In this document: positions 21,996-32,000 of the stretch, piece after piece
Position numbering within the stretch: position 1 is the stretch's first letter
Layout: each line of letters starts with the position of its first letter
Assembly: GCA_041674405.1 (NCBI GenBank)
Contig: JBAYVT010000001.1
Span: 218,827 to 250,826 of the forward strand
Length of the DNA stretch: 32,000 bases
Direction: 5' to 3'
DNA from: Patescibacteria group bacterium
Lineage (GTDB): Bacteria; Patescibacteriota; UBA1384; XYA2-FULL-43-10
Program-made: the position numbers and the translations under genes
Notes under the pieces: model-generated
Seen by the model: only the letters and a program-made list of their open reading frames with translations
Database searches by the model: none
What the model was told of the DNA's origin: nothing

Positions 21996-22868
21996 TTACT
22001 TTTTGGCTTTTTTCTTGACCGCAATTTTGGCAGCTTGTTTCGGTGCGACTTTCGGTACAGTAATAGTCAAAATTCCGTTGTCCATCTCAGCTTCGGCCTT
22101 TTCTGATTTAACTTCGGATGGCAGTGTGAAGCTTCTAGTAAATGATCCAGTATACATTTCTTTGTGATAAAATCCCTCGTCTTTTTCTTCCTTTTCCTCT
22201 TTTTTCTCACCAGAAATTGTCATTATGTTATCGGCAACTTCAACAGTGACATCTTCCTCGGCAACTCCCGGAAGTTCGGCTTTGACTATGACAGCGTCTT
22301 TGGTTTCTTTTACATTGATTTTCGGCATTCCGCCAGCCTTGGCTGGGGTGACAACGCTTTCCTCAAAAAGACGATCCATTGCATCACGGAGAGTAACCAT
22401 TTCTCCGAAAGGGCGCCACGGCCCAATTTCTCTTGGCATAGAATTCTCCTTTACCCCGAGCCTGTCGAGGGGTTTACCCACCTCATCGAGCCTGTCGAGG
22501 GGTTTACCCACCTCATCGAGCCTGTCGAGGGGTTTACCCACCTCATCGAGCCTGCCGAGGAGTCTCTCGTCCTCAATTTGTCCGAGTTGCCCAGCAGTTG
22601 CGGGGTTATGATTAATAATTTTTATTGGTGAATTATTTTCAAACATTTGATTAATTTCTTTTTCAAAATCAAATATTTCCTCAAATGCAGAATTGAAAAA
22701 ATTGCACATCGATACAACAAGGGGTAGTGATGGCATATATTTCCCCTGCTCAAGAGCGATCACAGACTGCCGGGAAATACCCAGAGCTTCGGCCAGTTCC
22801 TCTTGTGAAAGATCGTGTTGGCGACGAAGTTCGCGCAATCTGTTTTGAATGTTTGGTTCTTCTTTCAT
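21996..22868 (-). CDS. XRE-family HTH regulator fused through a decapeptide repeat linker to an Hsp20/alpha-crystallin domain (290 aa)
   Basis: N-terminus 'LRELRRQHDLSQEELAEALGISRQSVIALEQGK'. Three copies of 'LDEVGKPLDR'. C-terminus 'VKETKDAVIVKAELPGVAEEDVTVEV...ISGEKK...FTRSFTLP...AEMDNGILTITVPK'. Internal AAGGAG+ATG at 22439 could also give a stand-alone 147-aa sHSP. Confidence 0.75.
   Translation of the reverse strand: MKEEPNIQNRLRELRRQHDLSQEELAEALGISRQSVIALEQGKYMPSLPLVVSMCNFFNSAFEEIFDFEKEINQMFENNSPIKIINHNPATAGQLGQIEDERLLGRLDEVGKPLDRLDEVGKPLDRLDEVGKPLDRLGVKENSMPREIGPWRPFGEMVTLRDAMDRLFEESVVTPAKAGGMPKINVKETKDAVIVKAELPGVAEEDVTVEVADNIMTISGEKKEEKEEKDEGFYHKEMYTGSFTRSFTLPSEVKSEKAEAEMDNGILTITVPKVAPKQAAKIAVKKKAKK
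22461..22550. repeat. 3 perfect tandem copies of a 30-bp unit (cctgtcgaggggtttacccacctcatcgag), in frame within the CDS
   Basis: Units at 22461, 22491 and 22521, with partial degenerate copies on both flanks (22454-22460, 22551-22560). Confidence 0.95.
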
Positions 22869-27842: not shown

Positions 27843-27871
27843 TTGACATCCAATCACCTTTTTTGTATATT
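27843..27871 (+). promoter_or_regulatory. promoter of the HAD cassette (TTGACA-17-TATATT)
   Basis: Hexamers at 27843-27848 and 27866-27871. Confidence 0.55.
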
Positions 27872-27911
27872 GTCGGGGTCCGACAACCCTAACACCACAA
27901 GGAGAAACGCA

Positions 27912-28424
27912 ATGTCTAGACCCGAGCCGGATATGCGGTTTCACTCGATCGGACACGTCCCGGTCGATGTCCTCCGATACGCAGGGATCAAGGTCCTGCT
28001 CTTTGATGTCGACAATACCTGCGCGCTCCGCAAGTTTGGTTGCCTGACCAACGAGGCGATCGACTTGATCATGAAGGCAAAGGCAGCTGGAATGACCGTC
28101 GTCCTCGTGTCGAACGTCGTCTCCAGCAAGCGCCGGATCGAGCGCGTACGAAAGATGGCGTACGACAACGATGTGGCCTTCGTCTGTGCTACATTTCCGC
28201 GACTCAAGCCGCACCCCGCCCCGTACCAGGAAGCCATGAGCCTTGCTGACGCCAAGCCGAATGAGGCTTGCATGATCGGTGACCAGCTCTTCACCGACGT
28301 GAAAGGCGCAAAGCGTCTCGGCATGATGGCAATTCTGGTAGATCCACTCGGCAGTGACCACCTTGTCACCACACCGAGGCGCCTGCTCCAGAACTTGGCC
28401 CTCCGCAAGGTGGCCTACACCTGA
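27912..28424 (+). CDS. YqeG-like HAD-IIIA phosphatase (170 aa), G+C-rich cassette
   Basis: AAGGAG SD lies 7 nt before ATG 27912. Motif I 'LLFDVDNT', motif II 'VLVSN', motif IV 'MIGDQLFTDV'. Confidence 0.8.
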   Translation: MSRPEPDMRFHSIGHVPVDVLRYAGIKVLLFDVDNTCALRKFGCLTNEAIDLIMKAKAAGMTVVLVSNVVSSKRRIERVRKMAYDNDVAFVCATFPRLKPHPAPYQEAMSLADAKPNEACMIGDQLFTDVKGAKRLGMMAILVDPLGSDHLVTTPRRLLQNLALRKVAYT

Positions 28425-28523: not shown

Positions 28524-28542
28524 ATGTTCGGCAAATGTTCGG
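28524..28542 (+). promoter_or_regulatory. direct repeat ATGTTCGG-N3-ATGTTCGG (= GTTC-N7-GTTC) upstream of the LexA-MTase gene; candidate operator
   Basis: GTTC at 28526-28529 and 28537-28540, 11-bp phasing. Lies just upstream of the candidate promoter GTTACA (28552) -17- TACAAT (28575). Confidence 0.35.
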
Positions 28543-28617
28543 TTATCCACAGTTACATTTTTGACATTCCATAATACAATAGATCTAGAAATAAAATAGA
28601 AAACACAGGGAGGTGTT

Positions 28618-30153
28618 GTGTTGACGAAAAGGCAGCAAGAAATTCTGGACTATATAAAAAAATATCAGGCTAAACATAAATTTTCTCCCTCTCTTGATGA
28701 AATTCGACAAAAGTTTGGGTTTGCCTCCGTTTCGACGGCACACTTCCACGTGTCAAAGCTTCAGGAAATGGGATATTTGGAAAAAGGAAACCATCAGGCT
28801 CGCTCGATTGACGCAACAAACCAAGAAGAATTGATGCGCATTCAGATAGTTGGCACTATTGCTGCCGGATTTTCTATTGAAGCAATAAAATTATCAGATC
28901 GCGACATTGCAGTCTCGACCAAAGAATTGGACCCTAAACAAAAATATTACGCCCTCAAAGTGAGGGGTGACAACATGACCGACGAAGGAATTTTCGATGG
29001 TGACATTGTTGTTTTAAGAAATCAAAGTACAGCAAAAGAAGGAGAAACAGTCGTTGCAATTATCGATGGCAATAAAGCCATTCTGAAAAAATTTTTTAAG
29101 GAAAAAAATAGAATTAGATTGCAATCAGCAAACCAATCAATGCTGCCGATCTTCCGAAAAGACGCCGAAATAAAAGGTGTGGTTGTTAAGATCATAAGAA
29201 ATCTGGAAAATAATTCCGAAAACACATTAGCAGACAGAAAAAAAGAATATTTACTTAAAATCAAAAGTAAAAACCCAAACAGCCAAAATAAGTACAAAAG
29301 AGTGGCTCTTTCCCCGATTAGATATGCCGGTGGCAAGAGCCTGGCAGTAGGCCATGTCATAGAACTGCTTCCTGATAATATCACCCGGCTTGTTTCTCCG
29401 TTTTTTGGCGGTGGCTCTATAGAAATTGCAGCAAGCAAACACTTGGGACTCGAAGTCATTGGATATGATATTTTCGACATTTTGTGCAATTATTGGAATT
29501 TTCAAATTAAAAATCCTGAGCTTTTATATACGAGTCTCAAAAAACTCAAGCCAGATAAGGCGACATTTGAAAAAATTAGATTTATTCTAAATGATGTTTG
29601 GAAGAAGAAAACTAAGCTAGATCCTCTTACCATGGCTGTTTACTATGTTTACAACTTCAACCTATCTTACGGCCCCGGATTTATGGGATGGGCTTCAGAT
29701 ATTTATCTGGATGAATCTAGATATGAAAGAATGCTCGCACGAATACGAGATTTCGATCCACAAAACCTCAGAGTAGAGTGCGCCGATTTCAGGGACGTTA
29801 TGAAAAAACATGTGAGTGATTTTTTATATTGCGATCCCCCATACTATATCGGGGCAGATTCAAAAATGTTCAAAGGTATATACCCCATGAGAAATATCCC
29901 GGTCCATCACAACGGATTTCCACATGAAGAGCTCCGAGATCTCTTGAAAAAACACAAGGGTGGGTTTGTCTTATCCTACAATAATTGCCCGACTATCCGA
30001 GAGTACTATAAAGATTTTCAACAATTATTTCCCACCTGGCAGTACACGATGGGCCAGGGCGAAACGAGGATTGGAACAAATAGAATCAAACATGGCGACA
30101 ATCACATTAAAGAATCGCACGAACTCTTGATTTATTCGCCGCCAAAAATATAG
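28618..30153 (+). CDS. LexA-like repressor (wHTH + S24 domain, Ser->Asn) fused to a Dam-family D12 N6-adenine DNA methyltransferase (511 aa)
   Basis: GGGAGG SD before GTG 28618. LexA-like 'LTKRQQEILDYI', 'IAAGF', 'VRGDNMTDEGIFDGDIVV', 'AILKKF'. MTase motifs 'IRYAGGKS', 'SPFFGGGSIE', 'YCDPPYY'. Confidence 0.85.
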   Translation: MLTKRQQEILDYIKKYQAKHKFSPSLDEIRQKFGFASVSTAHFHVSKLQEMGYLEKGNHQARSIDATNQEELMRIQIVGTIAAGFSIEAIKLSDRDIAVSTKELDPKQKYYALKVRGDNMTDEGIFDGDIVVLRNQSTAKEGETVVAIIDGNKAILKKFFKEKNRIRLQSANQSMLPIFRKDAEIKGVVVKIIRNLENNSENTLADRKKEYLLKIKSKNPNSQNKYKRVALSPIRYAGGKSLAVGHVIELLPDNITRLVSPFFGGGSIEIAASKHLGLEVIGYDIFDILCNYWNFQIKNPELLYTSLKKLKPDKATFEKIRFILNDVWKKKTKLDPLTMAVYYVYNFNLSYGPGFMGWASDIYLDESRYERMLARIRDFDPQNLRVECADFRDVMKKHVSDFLYCDPPYYIGADSKMFKGIYPMRNIPVHHNGFPHEELRDLLKKHKGGFVLSYNNCPTIREYYKDFQQLFPTWQYTMGQGETRIGTNRIKHGDNHIKESHELLIYSPPKI

Positions 30154-30693
30154 CTACTTTTTCTTAAGCCTATTTTGATGATAAAGGTTGTGCTGCTTGG
30201 CAAGATCTTCCGGATAAGGCTTATTGTTCTCTTGAAAATTCCATTCAGGATAGCATGCCTTTCTTGAGTAATAATCCGACTTGCAAAGGTCTTCCATCTC
30301 TTTAAAACTAGCAATTTCCCTTTGTTCCGAGTCAAAAAGCCCATTCACTGATGCCATAGCTTTTGGTGACGTGATCATAAAAAGCTCAACTTTTGAACCC
30401 AATTTCAATGCCCGCTCAATTAGAAGATGAATGACAAAACGTGGAACACCCGGGCTTCCGGTCATCGCGCCTGTATAGAAACTCATTGTTGCTTTTATTC
30501 CGCCCTTGCCGGCTGATCCGCCAATTTTTTTGATGATACCATCTTGGGTAATGATATATATTCGTGCCCGATCGTCCACAAGAGTGCTATTTTCAATTTC
30601 TTTAGAATATTTGAGCTCGATTTTATTTCGATGATTTGCCTTGAGGACAAAATCACCGATTTTTATTGCTGTCTTCACATCACTGATATGCAT
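30154..30693 (-). CDS. hypothetical protein, candidate GIY-YIG-like nuclease partner of the methyltransferase (179 aa)
   Basis: Its stop codon is directly adjacent to the MTase stop (30153/30154). 'RIYIITQDGIIKKIGGS' resembles a GIY...YIG segment. Family not confidently recognised. Confidence 0.6.
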   Translation of the reverse strand: MHISDVKTAIKIGDFVLKANHRNKIELKYSKEIENSTLVDDRARIYIITQDGIIKKIGGSAGKGGIKATMSFYTGAMTGSPGVPRFVIHLLIERALKLGSKVELFMITSPKAMASVNGLFDSEQREIASFKEMEDLCKSDYYSRKACYPEWNFQENNKPYPEDLAKQHNLYHQNRLKKK

Positions 30694-30781
30694 TTTGAAT
30701 CTCCCATTTGATAAATATCAAGGCTACACTACTCCCGTAGAGGTAAAAAGGCAAATTCGCCGAGAACAAAGTCTAAATTTT

Positions 30782-30810
30782 GTTGACGGAAGGCTACTAA
30801 AACGCTATTA
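30782..30810 (+). promoter_or_regulatory. promoter of the CSD cassette (TTGACG-17-TATTAT)
   Basis: Hexamers at 30782-30787 and 30805-30810. Confidence 0.5.
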
Positions 30811-30850
30811 TCTCGTTGCGTACCATCCTATATACTACGAGGTGAGGCTC

Positions 30851-31450
30851 ATGCCTCGACGGAACCACCAAAAACACGGGGCAGGCAGGAGCCGAACTGG
30901 CTCGGCGTTCTTCAAGAAGCTGGGGGGAGGTGATGTCGTATACGACCTTCCGGCCGATAACTCGCTGGATGATGGCTGGATTGGGGAAGCTCCGGGTCGC
31001 TACTTCGGTTTGCCCGGCTTCGTTCCGGTTACTGCCGAAGAGCCGGAGCCAAAGCCAGAGCCAGATCTGCCTCACGGCGTCGGATTCACAGAGCCGATCG
31101 AGGGCGCCGCTGGCGTGGTGCAGTTCTACCACCACGAAAGAGGATTTGGCTGGATCAAGCTCGACCACGACAGAAGAACCGTTTTCGCGCATGTCAGTGG
31201 GCTTGTGCACAGCAACGGGGAAAAGCCCTTCCTCTGGAAAGGCATGGAGGTCACCTTCGACGTCACCTTCGAGGCACGATTCGATCGGTGGCAAGCCGTG
31301 CATGTTCGCCTCACAAACAGCCAGAGCTTCACGGAGTGGGGTAGTAAGCGCGGCATCTACTTCGAGACCGAGGAGGACTTCCTCGGGCACCGGCAGATAT
31401 ATCTGCGCGATCGCAGATCCCATAGGGAGCGCGTGCGGGTTTGCCCGTAG
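30851..31450 (+). CDS. cold-shock-domain protein with long N- and C-terminal extensions (199 aa), G+C-rich cassette
   Basis: GAGGTGAGG SD before ATG 30851. CSD core 'GVVQFYHHERGFGWIKLDHDRRTVFAHVSGL...GMEVTFDV'. Confidence 0.7.
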   Translation: MPRRNHQKHGAGRSRTGSAFFKKLGGGDVVYDLPADNSLDDGWIGEAPGRYFGLPGFVPVTAEEPEPKPEPDLPHGVGFTEPIEGAAGVVQFYHHERGFGWIKLDHDRRTVFAHVSGLVHSNGEKPFLWKGMEVTFDVTFEARFDRWQAVHVRLTNSQSFTEWGSKRGIYFETEEDFLGHRQIYLRDRRSHRERVRVCP

Positions 31451-31478
31451 TCTCGCAACAAGACACATATAGTCGTAC

Positions 31479-31509
31479 ATGCGCCTCGCCGGCTCCCGGC
31501 GAGGCGCAT
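31479..31509 (+). terminator. GC-rich hairpin terminator of the CSD gene
   Basis: atgcgcctcgccgg / ccggcgaggcgcat 14-bp stem with a ctc loop. Confidence 0.65.
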
Positions 31510-31530
31510 TCGTTATATACATTTATATCA

Positions 31531-31608: not shown

Positions 31609-32000
31609 GGGGGTGTATTAGTTTCGACAGAAGGACCTTAAAAACATATCTGCAAGTAAGTGGGTAAGCCGCTTTATAAGCGTTTACAAATTTAAGTGCA
31701 AAAACACTTTCAGAGAGAGTAAAGACTGCTTTCGCAGGATTTGCTTTTTCGCCAGTTGCTGCTTAATTAATTAGTAGCAACCATCCGCCCTTCCGCTTTT
31801 CGACGGGAGAGATCGGGTGTTATATTTCGAAATGCTGATTTTCCGGTTCTTGCGCGGAAAATAGTAAGCCAAACAGCGAGATAAGATAATAGTTTTCTGC
31901 CTTGGTTGAGCTATTATTCGAACAAATCACCAAGGCAAAACTTGTAGACGATATGTTTGAAGCCTTTTGGACAGGGGTGCAACTCCCCTCACCTCCACCA
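31609..32000 (+). ncRNA. ssrA: tmRNA (transfer-messenger RNA)
   Basis: 5' GGGGGTG...TTTCGACA. 3' GGACAGGGGTGCAACTCCCCTCACCTCCACCA (T-arm, acceptor, CCA). Tag frame from GCA 31698 to TAA 31764-31766 ends ...FAFSPVAA. Confidence 0.95.

What the first reader, a model, noticed from the sequence alone, without database searches (positions are those of the whole stretch)
28524..30693. LexA-like repressor fused to a Dam-family methyltransferase, tail-to-tail with a small putative nuclease: candidate self-regulated R-M/defence module
One 511-aa ORF (28618-30153) joins two normally separate proteins. Residues ~1-200 read like a complete Bacillus-type LexA. They show a wHTH 'LTKRQQEILDYIKKY...VSTAHFHVSKLQEMGYLEK', a hinge 'GTIAAGFSIEA' and an S24 fold 'YALKVRGDNMTDEGIFDGDIVVLRNQ...AILKKFFKEKNRIRLQSAN'. 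Residues ~235-511 carry the D12/Dam N6-adenine MTase motifs 'SPIRYAGGKS', motif I 'SPFFGGGSIE' and motif IV 'YCDPPYY'. A 179-aa ORF on the opposite strand ends at 30154, so the two stop codons are directly adjacent. It contains a GIY-YIG-like 'RIYIITQDGIIKKIGGS' segment, which makes it a candidate cognate nuclease. R-M systems are normally controlled by small C-proteins or a short HTH on the MTase. I do not know of a whole LexA scaffold serving as the regulatory module of a methyltransferase. The AT-rich two-gene block lies between two G+C-rich cassettes and next to ssrA, which is an accessory-type context.
Basis: partly seen in the sequence, partly recalled or inferred. Interest (0 to 1): 0.8.

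Follow-up and report, generated by a model that had tools for sequence, protein, structure and literature searches.

The report
LexA-fused methyltransferase restriction-modification module
This is a real restriction-modification gene pair in a candidate-phyla-radiation (CPR, Patescibacteria) bacterium whose protective methyltransferase is fused to a whole LexA repressor that appears to control its own promoter; the design recurs across many such bacteria and I found no paper describing it.

Summary
ORF 28618-30153 (+) encodes LexA wHTH + S24 peptidase + D12-class DNA methyltransferase. ORF 30154-30693 (-) abuts it stop-to-stop and models as a GIY-YIG nuclease (closest folds T4 EndoII and R.Hpy188I).

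The nuclease-methyltransferase pair is conserved in CPR bacteria, DPANN archaea, SAR11 and T4-like cyanophages. Only the CPR copies carry the LexA half.

Fused genes have a promoter cassette that unfused genes lack. It holds an 11-bp-period direct-repeat operator over the -10 or transcription start, and a perfect DnaA-type box. The operator half-site covaries with the LexA recognition helix. The operator is essentially confined to this promoter, which points to dedicated autorepression.

The LexA half's nearest relatives are 42 clusters of long proteins. All are LexA fused to DNA methyltransferases, from four different families, and some sit beside BsoBI- or Alw26I-type endonucleases. Ala-Gly, Ser and Lys are almost invariant in the family.

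The window's own copy is an exception. It has Ser119Asn and a drifted S24 domain, so it is probably a non-cleavable autorepressor.

Verdict: a new variant of methyltransferase-borne R-M autoregulation. RecA-triggered cleavage, the recognition site and the modified base remain untested.

The parts
28525..28542 (+). Extra direct repeat TGTTCGG-CAAA-TGTTCGG (11-bp period). This half-site type belongs to LexA modules with an HQH recognition helix, so it is not cognate to this protein's STAHFH helix.
   Evidence: Exact match is unique in the window. The same half-site is the operator in L015 and L075. Function here is unknown: either cross-regulation or a recombination relic.
28543..28551 (+). Perfect DnaA-box consensus TTATCCACA, abutting or overlapping the -35 region.
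   Evidence: Only perfect copy in the window. A perfect box lies within 200 bp upstream in 22 of 28 fused loci (25 of 28 allowing one mismatch), against 3 elsewhere in 317 kb and 0 of 32 unfused loci.
28546..28580 (+). Two overlapping sigma-70-like promoter candidates: TCCACA-18-CATAAT (28546-28575) and GTTACA-17-TACAAT (28552-28580).
   Evidence: Consensus scan only. The layout matches L006 and L084, where a -10 lies 10 nt upstream of the inverted operator.
28585..28602 (-). Cognate operator. It reads TTTCTAT-TTTA-TTTCTAG on the minus strand (CTAGAAA...ATAGAAA on the plus strand), has an 11-bp period and lies between the -10 and the RBS.
   Evidence: Only site of this type in the 32-kb window. 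The same half-site pairs with STAHFH-type helices in 13 of 13 loci.
28608..28613 (+). Ribosome-binding site GGGAGG.
   Evidence: Read from the sequence.
28618..30153 (+). LexA-S24-D12 DNA methyltransferase fusion gene (511 aa; GTG start, or TTG at 28621 giving 510 aa).
   Evidence: The full-length AF2 model shows separate folded domains with low-confidence linkers at residues 58-61, 86-92 and 196-201.
28621..28803 (+). LexA winged helix-turn-helix (residues 2-62). The recognition helix is SVSTAHFHVSKL.
   Evidence: Pfam PF01726. Gapless alignment to E. coli and T. maritima LexA. No deviations at conserved columns.
28846..29187 (+). Peptidase S24 (LexA C-terminal) domain, residues 77-190. It has drifted in this copy.
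   Evidence: Pfam PF00717. Eight substitutions at >=95%-conserved columns against a family mean of 1.0.
28864..28869 (+). Ala83-Gly84, the LexA self-cleavage bond.
   Evidence: Aligned to E. coli A84-G85. Conserved in 120 of 121 family members.
28972..28974 (+). Codon AAC = Asn119 at the position of the nucleophilic Ser (E. coli S119). It is one transition from Ser AGC.
   Evidence: Ser in 119 of 121 sequences; the two Asn are this protein and its identical database copy P0001.
29086..29088 (+). Lys157, the general base (E. coli K156).
   Evidence: 121 of 121.
29323..30051 (+). D12-class (alpha) DNA amino-methyltransferase domain. Motif I is FFGGGS; motif IV DPPY lies at 29833-29844.
   Evidence: Pfam PF02086, model positions 1-253 of 253. 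PADLOC MTase_II PDLC03281, E 1e-110. Motifs are invariant.
30154..30693 (-). 179-aa GIY-YIG-fold nuclease, the candidate restriction endonuclease. Invariant Tyr46 (codon 30556-30558) and Lys56 (codon 30526-30528) have the same 10-residue spacing as Hpy188I Tyr63 and Lys73.
   Evidence: AF2 pLDDT 88, pTM 0.83. Foldseek hits in PDB and BFVD. Conservation. 578 homologues. Co-occurrence with M. Cyanophage homologue at 43% identity.

Best explanation
The locus is a Type II restriction-modification module. M is an alpha-class (D12) DNA amino-methyltransferase. R is a small GIY-YIG endonuclease encoded convergently, with no intergenic space.

In CPR bacteria the M gene has acquired a portable N-terminal LexA cassette. 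The cassette consists of a promoter with a DnaA-type box, an 11-bp-period direct-repeat operator, and a LexA wHTH + S24 reading frame.

The LexA half most likely binds the operator as a dimer and represses transcription of its own gene. That would keep methyltransferase levels low and self-limited, as the N-terminal HTH of SsoII/EcoRII-type methyltransferases does.

Because M and R transcripts must overlap, M autorepression probably also sets R expression through transcriptional interference or antisense effects (inferred).

In nearly all family members the Ala-Gly bond and the Ser/Lys dyad are conserved. In those proteins DNA damage (RecA*) should trigger self-cleavage, detach the DNA-binding domain, derepress M and raise methylation while the genome is being repaired. 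This would be an SOS-coupled restriction alleviation (inferred, not shown).

The window's own copy carries Ser119Asn and a drifted S24 domain. It is predicted to be a damage-blind, concentration-dependent autorepressor with intact methyltransferase and nuclease genes.
For: Architecture.

Reality and conservation of the fusion.

R fold.

R-M linkage:
- A GIY-YIG homologue lies convergent and abutting in 17 of 23 evaluable fused loci and in many unfused ones.
- The stop-to-stop gap is -30 to +10 bp, median 0, n=32.
- Five other fused loci carry a different convergent ~260-aa ORF instead.
- The pair is also linked, co-directionally, in cyanophages, at 41% and 43% identity.
- The M half matches a REBASE-derived Type II methyltransferase profile at E 1e-110.

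Operator:
- Present upstream of every fused gene examined and absent from 32 unfused genes.
- 27 promoter sites against 1 elsewhere in 296 kb.
- A -10 element overlaps or abuts the 3' half-site in 15 of 19 forward cases, and lies exactly 10 nt upstream in the three inverted cases checked (window, L006, L084).
- The half-site covaries with the helix residue that aligns with E. coli LexA E45: 13:0 versus 0:17, Fisher p = 8e-9, not corrected for phylogeny.

Generality:
- All 42 long relatives of the LexA half are LexA + S24 + a DNA methyltransferase: N6_N4 29, Eco57I/N6 7, D12 5, C5 2.
- Their neighbours include a BsoBI-family REase (E 1e-68) and an Alw26I-family REase (E 1e-121).
- They carry the same promoter cassette.
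- The cassette has been exchanged between methyltransferase families.

Cleavage machinery: conserved in 119-121 of 121 members. RecA is encoded in four of the fused CPR loci fetched.

Window copy: S119N plus eight deviations confined to the hinge and S24 domain.

Precedent for methyltransferase-borne autorepression: PMC3874152. Precedent for a direct-repeat LexA box, GTTCN7GTTC: PMC9578287.
Against: - No binding, cleavage, methylation or restriction has been measured.
- LexA dimers normally bind palindromes. Direct repeats are known only for alphaproteobacterial LexA.
- The helix-operator association rests on a few independent changes, and the sequences are related.
- The window carries a second, non-cognate repeat (28525-28542) that the model does not explain.
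- The role of the DnaA-type box is unknown.
- No operator was found near R, so any control of R is indirect.
- Some loci add a separate C-protein upstream of R, which suggests LexA-M alone may not time R expression.
- Whether the cleaved S24-methyltransferase fragment is active or stable is unknown. The direction of the SOS effect could therefore be the opposite of what I propose.
- R matches no Pfam, NCBIfam or PADLOC model. Its Arg and Glu catalytic equivalents are not mapped.
Confidence: 0.66

Rival explanations
1. Suicide (abortive-infection or addiction) switch. RecA*-induced cleavage inactivates or destabilises the methyltransferase, so that damage or phage infection tips the balance toward the nuclease and kills the cell.
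For: The cleavage machinery is strongly conserved. R is tightly coupled to M. R-M systems behave like toxin-antitoxin pairs (PMC3874152). After cleavage the methyltransferase stays attached to the S24 domain, and in E. coli that fragment is a protease substrate (my own knowledge).
Against: Cleavage separates only the wHTH (residues 1-83) from the S24-methyltransferase part and simultaneously derepresses the promoter, which argues for more methyltransferase, not less. The window's non-cleavable allele coexists with an intact R. This fits either model.
Confidence: 0.15
2. The LexA half is the organism's housekeeping SOS repressor that happens to be fused to a methyltransferase, and it controls a genome-wide regulon.
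For: It scores above the curated LexA equivalog cut-off. Databases name these proteins 'transcriptional repressor LexA'.
Against: The operator occurs only at its own promoter in 296 kb of host DNA and once in the window. L032 encodes a separate 191-aa stand-alone S24 (LexA-like) protein. One contig (L023) carries two different LexA-methyltransferase fusions side by side. The nearest relatives are all methyltransferase fusions from four families. The module's GC content differs from its hosts'.
Confidence: 0.06
3. The LexA scaffold does not act as a transcription factor. It serves to dimerise or tether the methyltransferase on DNA, or to keep it as a pro-enzyme that cleavage activates.
For: The S24 domain is a dimerisation module. 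The full-length model shows independent domains on flexible linkers.
Against: This does not explain a locus-specific operator placed over the -10 or the transcription start, nor its covariation with the recognition helix. It also does not explain why the same cassette serves four unrelated methyltransferase folds.
Confidence: 0.07
4. The nuclease-methyltransferase pair is a phage-type host-DNA-degradation and self-protection module (EndoII-like) rather than a cellular defence system.
For: The best fold match is T4 EndoII. Homologous pairs are encoded by T4-like cyanophages.
Against: In the window and in about 80 loci the pair sits in chromosomes, among housekeeping genes and with no phage genes nearby. 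Other LexA-methyltransferase fusions pair with classical REases.
Confidence: 0.05
5. Assembly join or frameshift artefact that creates a false fusion.
For: None found.
Against: More than 120 independent clusters have the same continuous ORF. Two assemblies hold the identical gene. The junction is conserved.
Confidence: 0.01

Closest known systems
Methyltransferase-borne N-terminal HTH autorepression in Type II R-M systems (M.SsoII, M.Ecl18kI, M.EcoRII, M.ScrFI; review PMC3874152)
   Same: A DNA-binding domain at the N-terminus of the methyltransferase binds an operator that overlaps its own promoter and represses M. R expression is affected indirectly.
   Different: The known cases use short HTH regions on C5 methyltransferases, mostly with divergent genes. 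Here the regulator is a complete LexA (wHTH + hinge + S24 self-cleaving domain). It is fused to alpha, beta, gamma and C5 methyltransferases, the R gene is convergent and abutting, the operator is a direct repeat, and a DnaA-type box accompanies it.
C-protein (controller) regulated R-M systems (PvuII, AhdI, Esp1396I, Kpn2I; PMC2175313, PMC2275141, PMC6237814)
   Same: A dedicated small transcription factor with system-specific operators times M versus R. AhdI also has convergent transcription units.
   Different: C-proteins are free-standing ~80-aa XRE HTH proteins, usually co-transcribed with R. The window has none. L004 and L006 have one in addition to the LexA-M fusion.
LexA / SOS repressor (TIGR00498), including the alphaproteobacterial direct-repeat SOS box GTTCN7GTTC (PMC9578287)
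   Same: Same domain order and an above-cut-off score. The family keeps Ala-Gly, Ser and Lys. The operator is a direct repeat with the same 11-bp period and a (G/T)TTC core.
   Different: It is fused to an enzyme and its operator is found only at its own promoter. The window copy lacks the nucleophilic Ser.
R.Hpy188I (TCNGA) and T4 endonuclease II, both GIY-YIG nucleases (PMC3045582; PDB 3OQG, 2WSH)
   Same: Similar size (about 170-180 aa) and the same fold by Foldseek. A GIY-type Tyr is followed 10 residues later by Lys-Ile-Gly, as in Hpy188I, where Lys73 replaces the YIG tyrosine.
   Different: Only 14-20% identity over the Foldseek alignments. No Pfam GIY-YIG hit. The Arg84 and Glu149 equivalents are not assigned, and the specificity is unknown.
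Endonuclease + DNA methyltransferase gene pair of T4-like cyanophages (S-P4 gp011/gp012, Syn30, Sf-CH11)
   Same: Both proteins are homologous to the window pair (43% and 41% identity) and their genes are adjacent.
   Different: The phage genes are co-directional and overlapping (R then M). They have no LexA, no operator and no DnaA box.
DNA-damage-responsive regulators of defence systems (CapH/CapP, CapW/BrxR) and SOS-linked restriction alleviation of Type I systems (my own knowledge, not checked here)
   Same: Conceptually similar: immunity genes are coupled to a DNA-damage signal.
   Different: The proteins and mechanisms differ. Here the sensor-repressor would be covalently part of the methyltransferase.

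Membership tests
LexA repressor (TIGR00498 / Pfam PF01726 + PF00717) | N-terminal LexA-type winged HTH | tested here: met
   PF01726, residues 2-62, E 2e-14. Gapless alignment to solved LexA structures.
LexA repressor (TIGR00498 / Pfam PF01726 + PF00717) | Ala-Gly self-cleavage bond in the hinge | tested here: met
   A83-G84 aligns with E. coli A84-G85. Conserved in 120 of 121 family members.
LexA repressor (TIGR00498 / Pfam PF01726 + PF00717) | Ser nucleophile / Lys general-base dyad | tested here: not met
   Lys157 is present, but position 119 is Asn (codon AAC) in the window. Ser is present in 119 of 121 relatives. The family meets this feature; this copy does not.
LexA repressor (TIGR00498 / Pfam PF01726 + PF00717) | Represses a multi-gene SOS regulon through SOS boxes | tested here: not met
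   The operator occurs only at its own promoter: 27 sites there against 1 elsewhere in 296 kb, and one site in the window. Whole genomes were not scanned.
LexA repressor (TIGR00498 / Pfam PF01726 + PF00717) | RecA*-stimulated autoproteolysis | not testable with these tools
   RecA genes are present in four fused CPR loci. Cleavage itself needs biochemistry.
D12-class (alpha) DNA amino-methyltransferase, Pfam PF02086 | Motif I (FxGxG) before the target-recognition region and motif IV (DPPY), with a full-length model match | tested here: met
   PF02086, model positions 1-253 of 253, 112 bits. FGGG and DPPY are invariant.
Dam subfamily (TIGR00571; GATC N6-adenine methylase) | Score above the curated cut-off; GATC m6A specificity | tested here: not met
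   52.9 bits against a cut-off of 114.85. The closest solved relative is M.CbeI, an alpha-class N4-cytosine methyltransferase that also has DPPY (PMC8616854). GATC avoidance is inconclusive.
Type II restriction-modification system | Methyltransferase gene adjacent to a nuclease gene, with conserved linkage | tested here: met
   The methyltransferase matches PADLOC MTase_II at E 1e-110.
Type II restriction-modification system | Sequence-specific cleavage that the cognate methylation blocks | not testable with these tools
   Needs enzymology or a methylome. R has no hit to catalogued REase models.
GIY-YIG nuclease superfamily | GIY-YIG alpha/beta fold | tested here: met
   Model pLDDT 88. Foldseek to 2WSH and 3OQG at E 6e-6 and 1e-5, probability 1.0; UvrC GIY-YIG domain next. 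BFVD Endonuclease II.
GIY-YIG nuclease superfamily | Catalytic residues: GIY Tyr, YIG Tyr (or Lys in Hpy188I), Arg, metal-binding Glu | tested here: inconclusive
   Invariant Y46 and K56-I-G have Hpy188I-like spacing (PMC3045582). Candidates for the Arg role (K67 or R85) and the Glu role (E132 or E134) were not placed by a residue-level superposition. There is no Pfam GIY-YIG hit.
SsoII/EcoRII-type methyltransferase autorepression | N-terminal DNA-binding domain on the methyltransferase and an operator overlapping its own promoter | tested here: met
   This rests on comparative evidence only; no binding assay was done.
SsoII/EcoRII-type methyltransferase autorepression | Short XRE-like HTH on a C5 methyltransferase | tested here: not met
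   The regulator is LexA wHTH + S24 and the methyltransferase is D12 class.
C-protein controlled R-M | Small HTH_3 ORF upstream of R | tested here: not met
   None in the window. One is present in L004 and L006.

The most novel reading that the evidence does not exclude
LexA-methyltransferase fusions are a portable, RecA*-cleavable regulatory cassette. They would couple Type II restriction-modification systems of CPR bacteria to DNA damage and, through the DnaA-type box, to replication status. Diversified helix/operator specificities would insulate, or deliberately cross-wire, the several R-M systems that share one small genome. The window would be a natural non-inducible allele of such a switch, carrying a second, foreign-type operator.
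Probability: 0.4. Interest if true: 0.85.

Novelty: new variant of a known kind. Interest (0 to 1): 0.74.

Why it matters
How Type II R-M systems avoid killing their own host during DNA repair, and how they set methyltransferase levels without a C-protein, are only partly understood.

A self-cleaving SOS repressor built into the methyltransferase would give a direct link between DNA damage and restriction alleviation, or suicide. This link is easy to test.

The design recurs with all four major DNA methyltransferase families in CPR bacteria. These organisms largely lack CRISPR (my own knowledge) and have very few regulators.

The matched helix/operator variants would also be a ready-made set of orthogonal LexA-type repressor/operator pairs.

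In practice, these proteins are currently annotated as 'LexA repressor', 'DNA adenine methylase' or 'hypothetical'. That can mislead SOS-regulon and methylome analyses of CPR genomes.

Tried and rejected
- Recognition site by site avoidance. Markov O/E for 4-, 5- and 6-mer palindromes in the window and in about 840 kb of host loci gave nothing usable. GATC is 0.61 with R against 0.87 without, but CTAG, TCGA and GGCC are also low, and the window shows no GATC depletion. Inconclusive.
- Sequence-level identification of the 179-aa protein. Pfam, NCBIfam and PADLOC gave no hit, and a profile search of PDB sequences gave only noise. Only the fold comparison worked.
- No homologue of R on PLSDB plasmids.
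- I looked for the operator, or any shared motif, upstream of R. None was found, and the R upstream regions are unrelated between loci.
- I looked for a second LexA gene in the window. There is none.
- I first read the window as an exception to the helix/operator rule, because the longest repeat is TGTTCGG. I rejected that after finding the cognate inverted TTTCTAT-type operator at 28585-28602, laid out as in L006 and L084.
- Five literature searches for a described LexA-methyltransferase fusion found nothing relevant. The Thermus phage preprint mentions LexA-like repressors only as separate genes.
- 'Housekeeping LexA' and 'assembly artefact' were considered and rejected; see the rival explanations.
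Full report
**1. Observation**

The two ORFs exist exactly as described: 28618-30153 (+, 511 aa) and 30154-30693 (-, 179 aa). Their stop codons touch.

For the long ORF, Pfam finds LexA_DNA_bind (residues 2-62), Peptidase_S24 (77-190) and MethyltransfD12 (236-478, full model length). The curated NCBIfam LexA equivalog TIGR00498 is passed at 156.8 bits against a cut-off of 110.95.

The window is ordinary chromosomal DNA of a Patescibacteria (CPR) MAG. It holds RNase P RNA, two tRNAs and tmRNA at 31609-32000. It also encodes ThrRS, SHMT, ThyX and ABC transporters.

The fusion is not an artefact. More than 120 clusters at 90% identity, from four data sources, have the same continuous three-domain protein at 67-75% identity. 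The identical gene pair occurs in two assemblies.

**2.

I aligned the protein to solved LexA structures. The Ala-Gly cleavage bond (A83-G84) and the general-base Lys (K157) are present. The nucleophilic Ser (E. coli S119) is Asn, in 'GDNM', encoded by AAC.

Across 121 family sequences the Ser is present in 119. The only two Asn are this protein and its identical database copy P0001. Ala-Gly is present in 120 and Lys in 121.

The window's hinge and S24 domain carry eight substitutions at columns that are at least 95% conserved. The family mean is 1.0, and only 1 of 119 other sequences has as many. The wHTH has no such deviations, and the methyltransferase half has two, against a mean of 1.4.

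So the family keeps a working self-cleavage apparatus. This copy has probably lost it while keeping DNA binding and methylation.

**3. The methyltransferase half**

Motifs I (FGGG) and IV (DPPY) are invariant. A REBASE-derived Type II methyltransferase profile matches residues 203-505 at E 1e-110.

'Dam family' is too specific a label. TIGR00571 is below its cut-off. The nearest solved relative is 7M6B, which its depositors describe as M.CbeI, an alpha-class N4-cytosine methyltransferase (PMC8616854). M.CbeI also carries DPPY, so the modified base is not settled by sequence. Site-avoidance statistics did not reveal the target.

**4. The 179-aa protein**

No sequence library recognises it. It has 578 homologues at about 70% identity, and its AF2 model is confident (pLDDT 88, pTM 0.83).

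Foldseek against the PDB returns T4 endonuclease II and the restriction enzyme Hpy188I (E about 1e-5, probability 1.0), followed by the UvrC GIY-YIG domain. The viral library returns Endonuclease II and GIY-YIG proteins.

Invariant Tyr46 ('RIY') and Lys56-Ile-Gly are 10 residues apart. In Hpy188I, Tyr63 and Lys73 have the same spacing, and Lys73 replaces the YIG tyrosine (PMC3045582). I could not place the Arg and Glu equivalents without a residue-level superposition.

**5. Linkage of the two genes**

A scan of one genome per species found 275 relatives of the long ORF, and 80 loci were fetched.

LexA-fused versions occur only in CPR-type MAGs. The methyltransferase alone (residues ~199-511, 59-78% identity) occurs in DPANN archaea, Pelagibacteraceae single-cell genomes, Dehalococcoidales and others.

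A homologue of the 179-aa protein lies immediately downstream and convergent in 17 of 23 evaluable fused loci and in many unfused ones. The stop-to-stop distance is -30 to +10 bp, with a median of 0 over 32 loci. There is no room for a terminator, so the transcripts must overlap.

Five fused loci instead carry a convergent ~260-aa ORF of another family.

T4-like cyanophages encode homologues of both proteins side by side, co-directionally, at 43% and 41% identity. These are annotated as endonuclease or GIY-YIG nuclease plus DNA methyltransferase.

The module's GC content is below that of its host flanks in 26 of 28 fused loci, for example 0.40 against 0.55 in L032. This fits a horizontally moving cassette.

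**6. The regulatory cassette**

Every fused gene examined is preceded by a direct repeat of a 7-bp half-site with an 11-bp period. The 32 unfused genes have nothing comparable.

The repeat is essentially unique to this promoter: 27 sites there against 1 elsewhere in 296 kb, and one site in the whole window.

Its position fits repression. In 15 of 19 forward-oriented cases a TATAAT-like -10 overlaps or abuts the 3' half-site. In the three inverted cases checked (window, L006, L084) a -10 lies exactly 10 nt upstream, so the repeat covers the transcription start.

The half-site tracks the recognition helix.
- Helices of the type S-T-A-H-F/Y-H go with TTTCTAT or TTTCGAT in 13 of 13 loci.
- Helices with H-Q-H or H-E-H go with (T/G)(T/C)TCGG(T/G) in 17 of 17.
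- H-H-H goes with GTTCTA, and H-K-H with TTTCGCT.
- The Fisher test gives p = 8e-9, not corrected for relatedness.

The variable helix residue aligns with E. coli LexA Glu45. From memory, that residue contacts bases.

The window fits this rule through an inverted operator at 28585-28602. That operator lies between the -10 and the RBS.

The window also has an extra, non-cognate TGTTCGG pair at 28525-28542, which I cannot explain.

A direct-repeat LexA box with the same period is known in Caulobacter: GTTCN7GTTC (PMC9578287).

**7. The DnaA-type box**

A perfect TTATCCACA lies within 200 bp upstream of 22 of 28 fused genes, or 25 of 28 allowing one mismatch. Its orientation varies. Only 3 copies occur elsewhere in 317 kb, and none lies upstream of the 32 unfused genes.

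In the window it is at 28543-28551, touching the -35 region. It travels with the LexA cassette whatever methyltransferase is attached, so it is not a methyltransferase target site. DnaA is the simplest candidate ligand, but this is an inference.

**8. Generality**

I searched the LexA half alone against 1.84 billion representative proteins. The best matches are mostly long proteins of 378-890 aa with LexA at residues 1-198. Ordinary 200-aa LexA proteins appear only lower in the list.

All 42 long representatives contain LexA_DNA_bind + Peptidase_S24 plus a DNA methyltransferase:
- N6_N4_Mtase in 29
- Eco57I/N6_Mtase in 7
- D12 in 5
- C5 DNA_methylase in 2

Ala-Gly, Ser and Lys are invariant across them.

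The named members are Patescibacteria, labelled 'LexA repressor' or 'hypothetical'.

Their gene contexts are classical R-M:
- L089 pairs a LexA-N6_N4 methyltransferase with an overlapping convergent BsoBI-family endonuclease (E 1e-68).
- L087 has a LexA-Eco57I-type methyltransferase, a C5 methyltransferase and a convergent Alw26I-family endonuclease (E 1e-121).

One contig, L023, holds two different LexA-methyltransferase systems in tandem.

L019's LexA half is fused to a D12 methyltransferase. It is 70% identical to LexA halves fused to gamma-class methyltransferases, but only 46-57% identical to other D12-fused ones. The cassette has therefore been exchanged between methyltransferase families.

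L032 also encodes a separate 191-aa stand-alone S24 (LexA-like) protein. The fusion is therefore not necessarily the cell's only LexA-type repressor.

**9. Mechanism**

Shown by computation:
- the domain architecture
- the nuclease fold
- conserved linkage of the two genes
- a promoter-specific operator that covaries with the helix
- conservation of the cleavage residues

Inferred:
- The LexA half dimerises through S24 and represses its own promoter. The closest known precedent is the N-terminal HTH of SsoII/EcoRII-type methyltransferases (PMC3874152).
- Because M and R transcripts collide, M autorepression also tunes R.
- In Ser-containing members, RecA* triggers cleavage at Ala-Gly. This releases a wHTH fragment ending in ...IAA (an ssrA-like tail) and derepresses M while DNA is being repaired.

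RecA is available in these organisms. It is encoded within 6 kb of the fusion in 4 of 28 fused loci.

The window allele (S119N, drifted S24) would be a damage-blind autorepressor.

The main rival reading is a suicide switch, in which cleavage lowers methyltransferase activity. The two differ only in the fate of the S24-methyltransferase fragment, and that needs biochemistry.

**10. Comparison and novelty**

In what it does, this resembles methyltransferase-borne autorepression. By membership it is a D12-class Type II methyltransferase with a GIY-YIG partner.

It is not a member of the Dam subfamily, because the cut-off is not met. This copy is also not a complete LexA, because the Ser is missing and no regulon is evident.

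Five full-text searches found no description of LexA-methyltransferase fusions. The library does not hold all journals, so prior mention cannot be excluded.

I rate it a new variant of a known kind, of clear interest to R-M and SOS specialists. The interest lies less in this particular allele than in the widespread architecture it reveals.

Noticed in passing
window 28543-28551, and the promoters of L001-L022, L032, L074, L075, L087, L089: A perfect DnaA-box consensus (TTATCCACA) accompanies the LexA-methyltransferase promoter in 22 of 28 fused loci. It is absent from 32 unfused loci and rare elsewhere (3 copies in 317 kb). Its orientation relative to the operator varies.
   Followed up: partly
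window 28525-28542: A second direct repeat, TGTTCGG-N4-TGTTCGG. Its type serves LexA halves with an HQH helix (L015, L075) and is not cognate to this protein. It may mark cross-regulation by another LexA-methyltransferase, or be a recombination relic.
   Followed up: partly
window 27843-28424 (+) and 30797-31522: The two genes flanking the module are compositionally foreign. The HAD/YqeG-like phosphatase has GC 0.57 and GC3 0.73, against about 0.40 for its neighbours. The right-hand GC-rich block (GC 0.58) is ambiguous in strand: gene callers take a 227-aa minus-strand ORF, while the plus-strand ORF 30641-31450 has a borderline cold-shock-domain hit (27.6 bits against a cut-off of 27).
   Followed up: partly
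window 21996-22868 (-): A 290-aa ORF joins an XRE-type HTH_3 domain (residues 11-64) to an HSP20 small heat-shock domain (186-283). This is another regulator-effector fusion in the same genome.
   Followed up: no
L023 99-5224: Two LexA-methyltransferase R-M systems lie in tandem on one contig. One is D12-type with a convergent 264-aa ORF. The other is a 617-aa LexA-N6_Mtase/Eco57I fusion with a convergent 323-aa ORF and its own operator, TTTCGCT x2.
   Followed up: partly
L013 1768-2724, L015 7502-8443, L017 1889-2887, L083 6467-6931: recA (50-58% identical to E. coli RecA) lies within 6 kb of the LexA-methyltransferase gene in 4 of 28 fused loci and in none of the unfused loci. In L015 it sits directly upstream of R. 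This may be enrichment or a shared insertion hotspot.
   Followed up: no
L004 3867-4088 (-), L006 8086-8307 (-), and probably L024: A 73-aa HTH_3 (C-protein-type) ORF ends 3-6 bp before the R start codon, in loci that also have the LexA-M fusion. Some systems therefore carry two regulators.
   Followed up: partly
L003, L010, L012, L074, L023 (the convergent ORF directly after M): An alternative ~260-280-aa partner family replaces the GIY-YIG gene next to a 77-79% identical methyltransferase (61% in L023). Its conserved motifs are GHEAEKEF..KKDVID..SVKSG, which may be PD-(D/E)XK-like.
   Followed up: no
L037-L062 (Pelagibacteraceae single-cell genomes): The unfused methyltransferase + GIY-YIG pair sits at one conserved site in SAR11 genomes, next to a gene that ends in GGM repeats (GroEL-like tail). 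Many SAR11 loci keep the methyltransferase but lack the nuclease.
   Followed up: no
L085 2501-3930 (Synechococcus phage S-P4) and L086 2001-3424 (phage Sf-CH11): T4-like cyanophages encode homologues of both window proteins as an overlapping, co-directional nuclease-methyltransferase pair. This suggests phage-mediated spread, or a phage use of the same module.
   Followed up: partly
L089 836-2949: A SIR2_2 gene and a GmrSD_N gene lie immediately upstream of the LexA-N6_N4 methyltransferase / BsoBI system. This looks like a small defence island.
   Followed up: no
window 31609-32000, and fusion residues 79-84: The tmRNA tag ends in ...SPVAA. After Ala-Gly cleavage the LexA N-terminal fragment would end in ...GTIAA, an ssrA-like C-terminus that could target it for ClpXP-type degradation. 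This is an inference from E. coli LexA.
   Followed up: no
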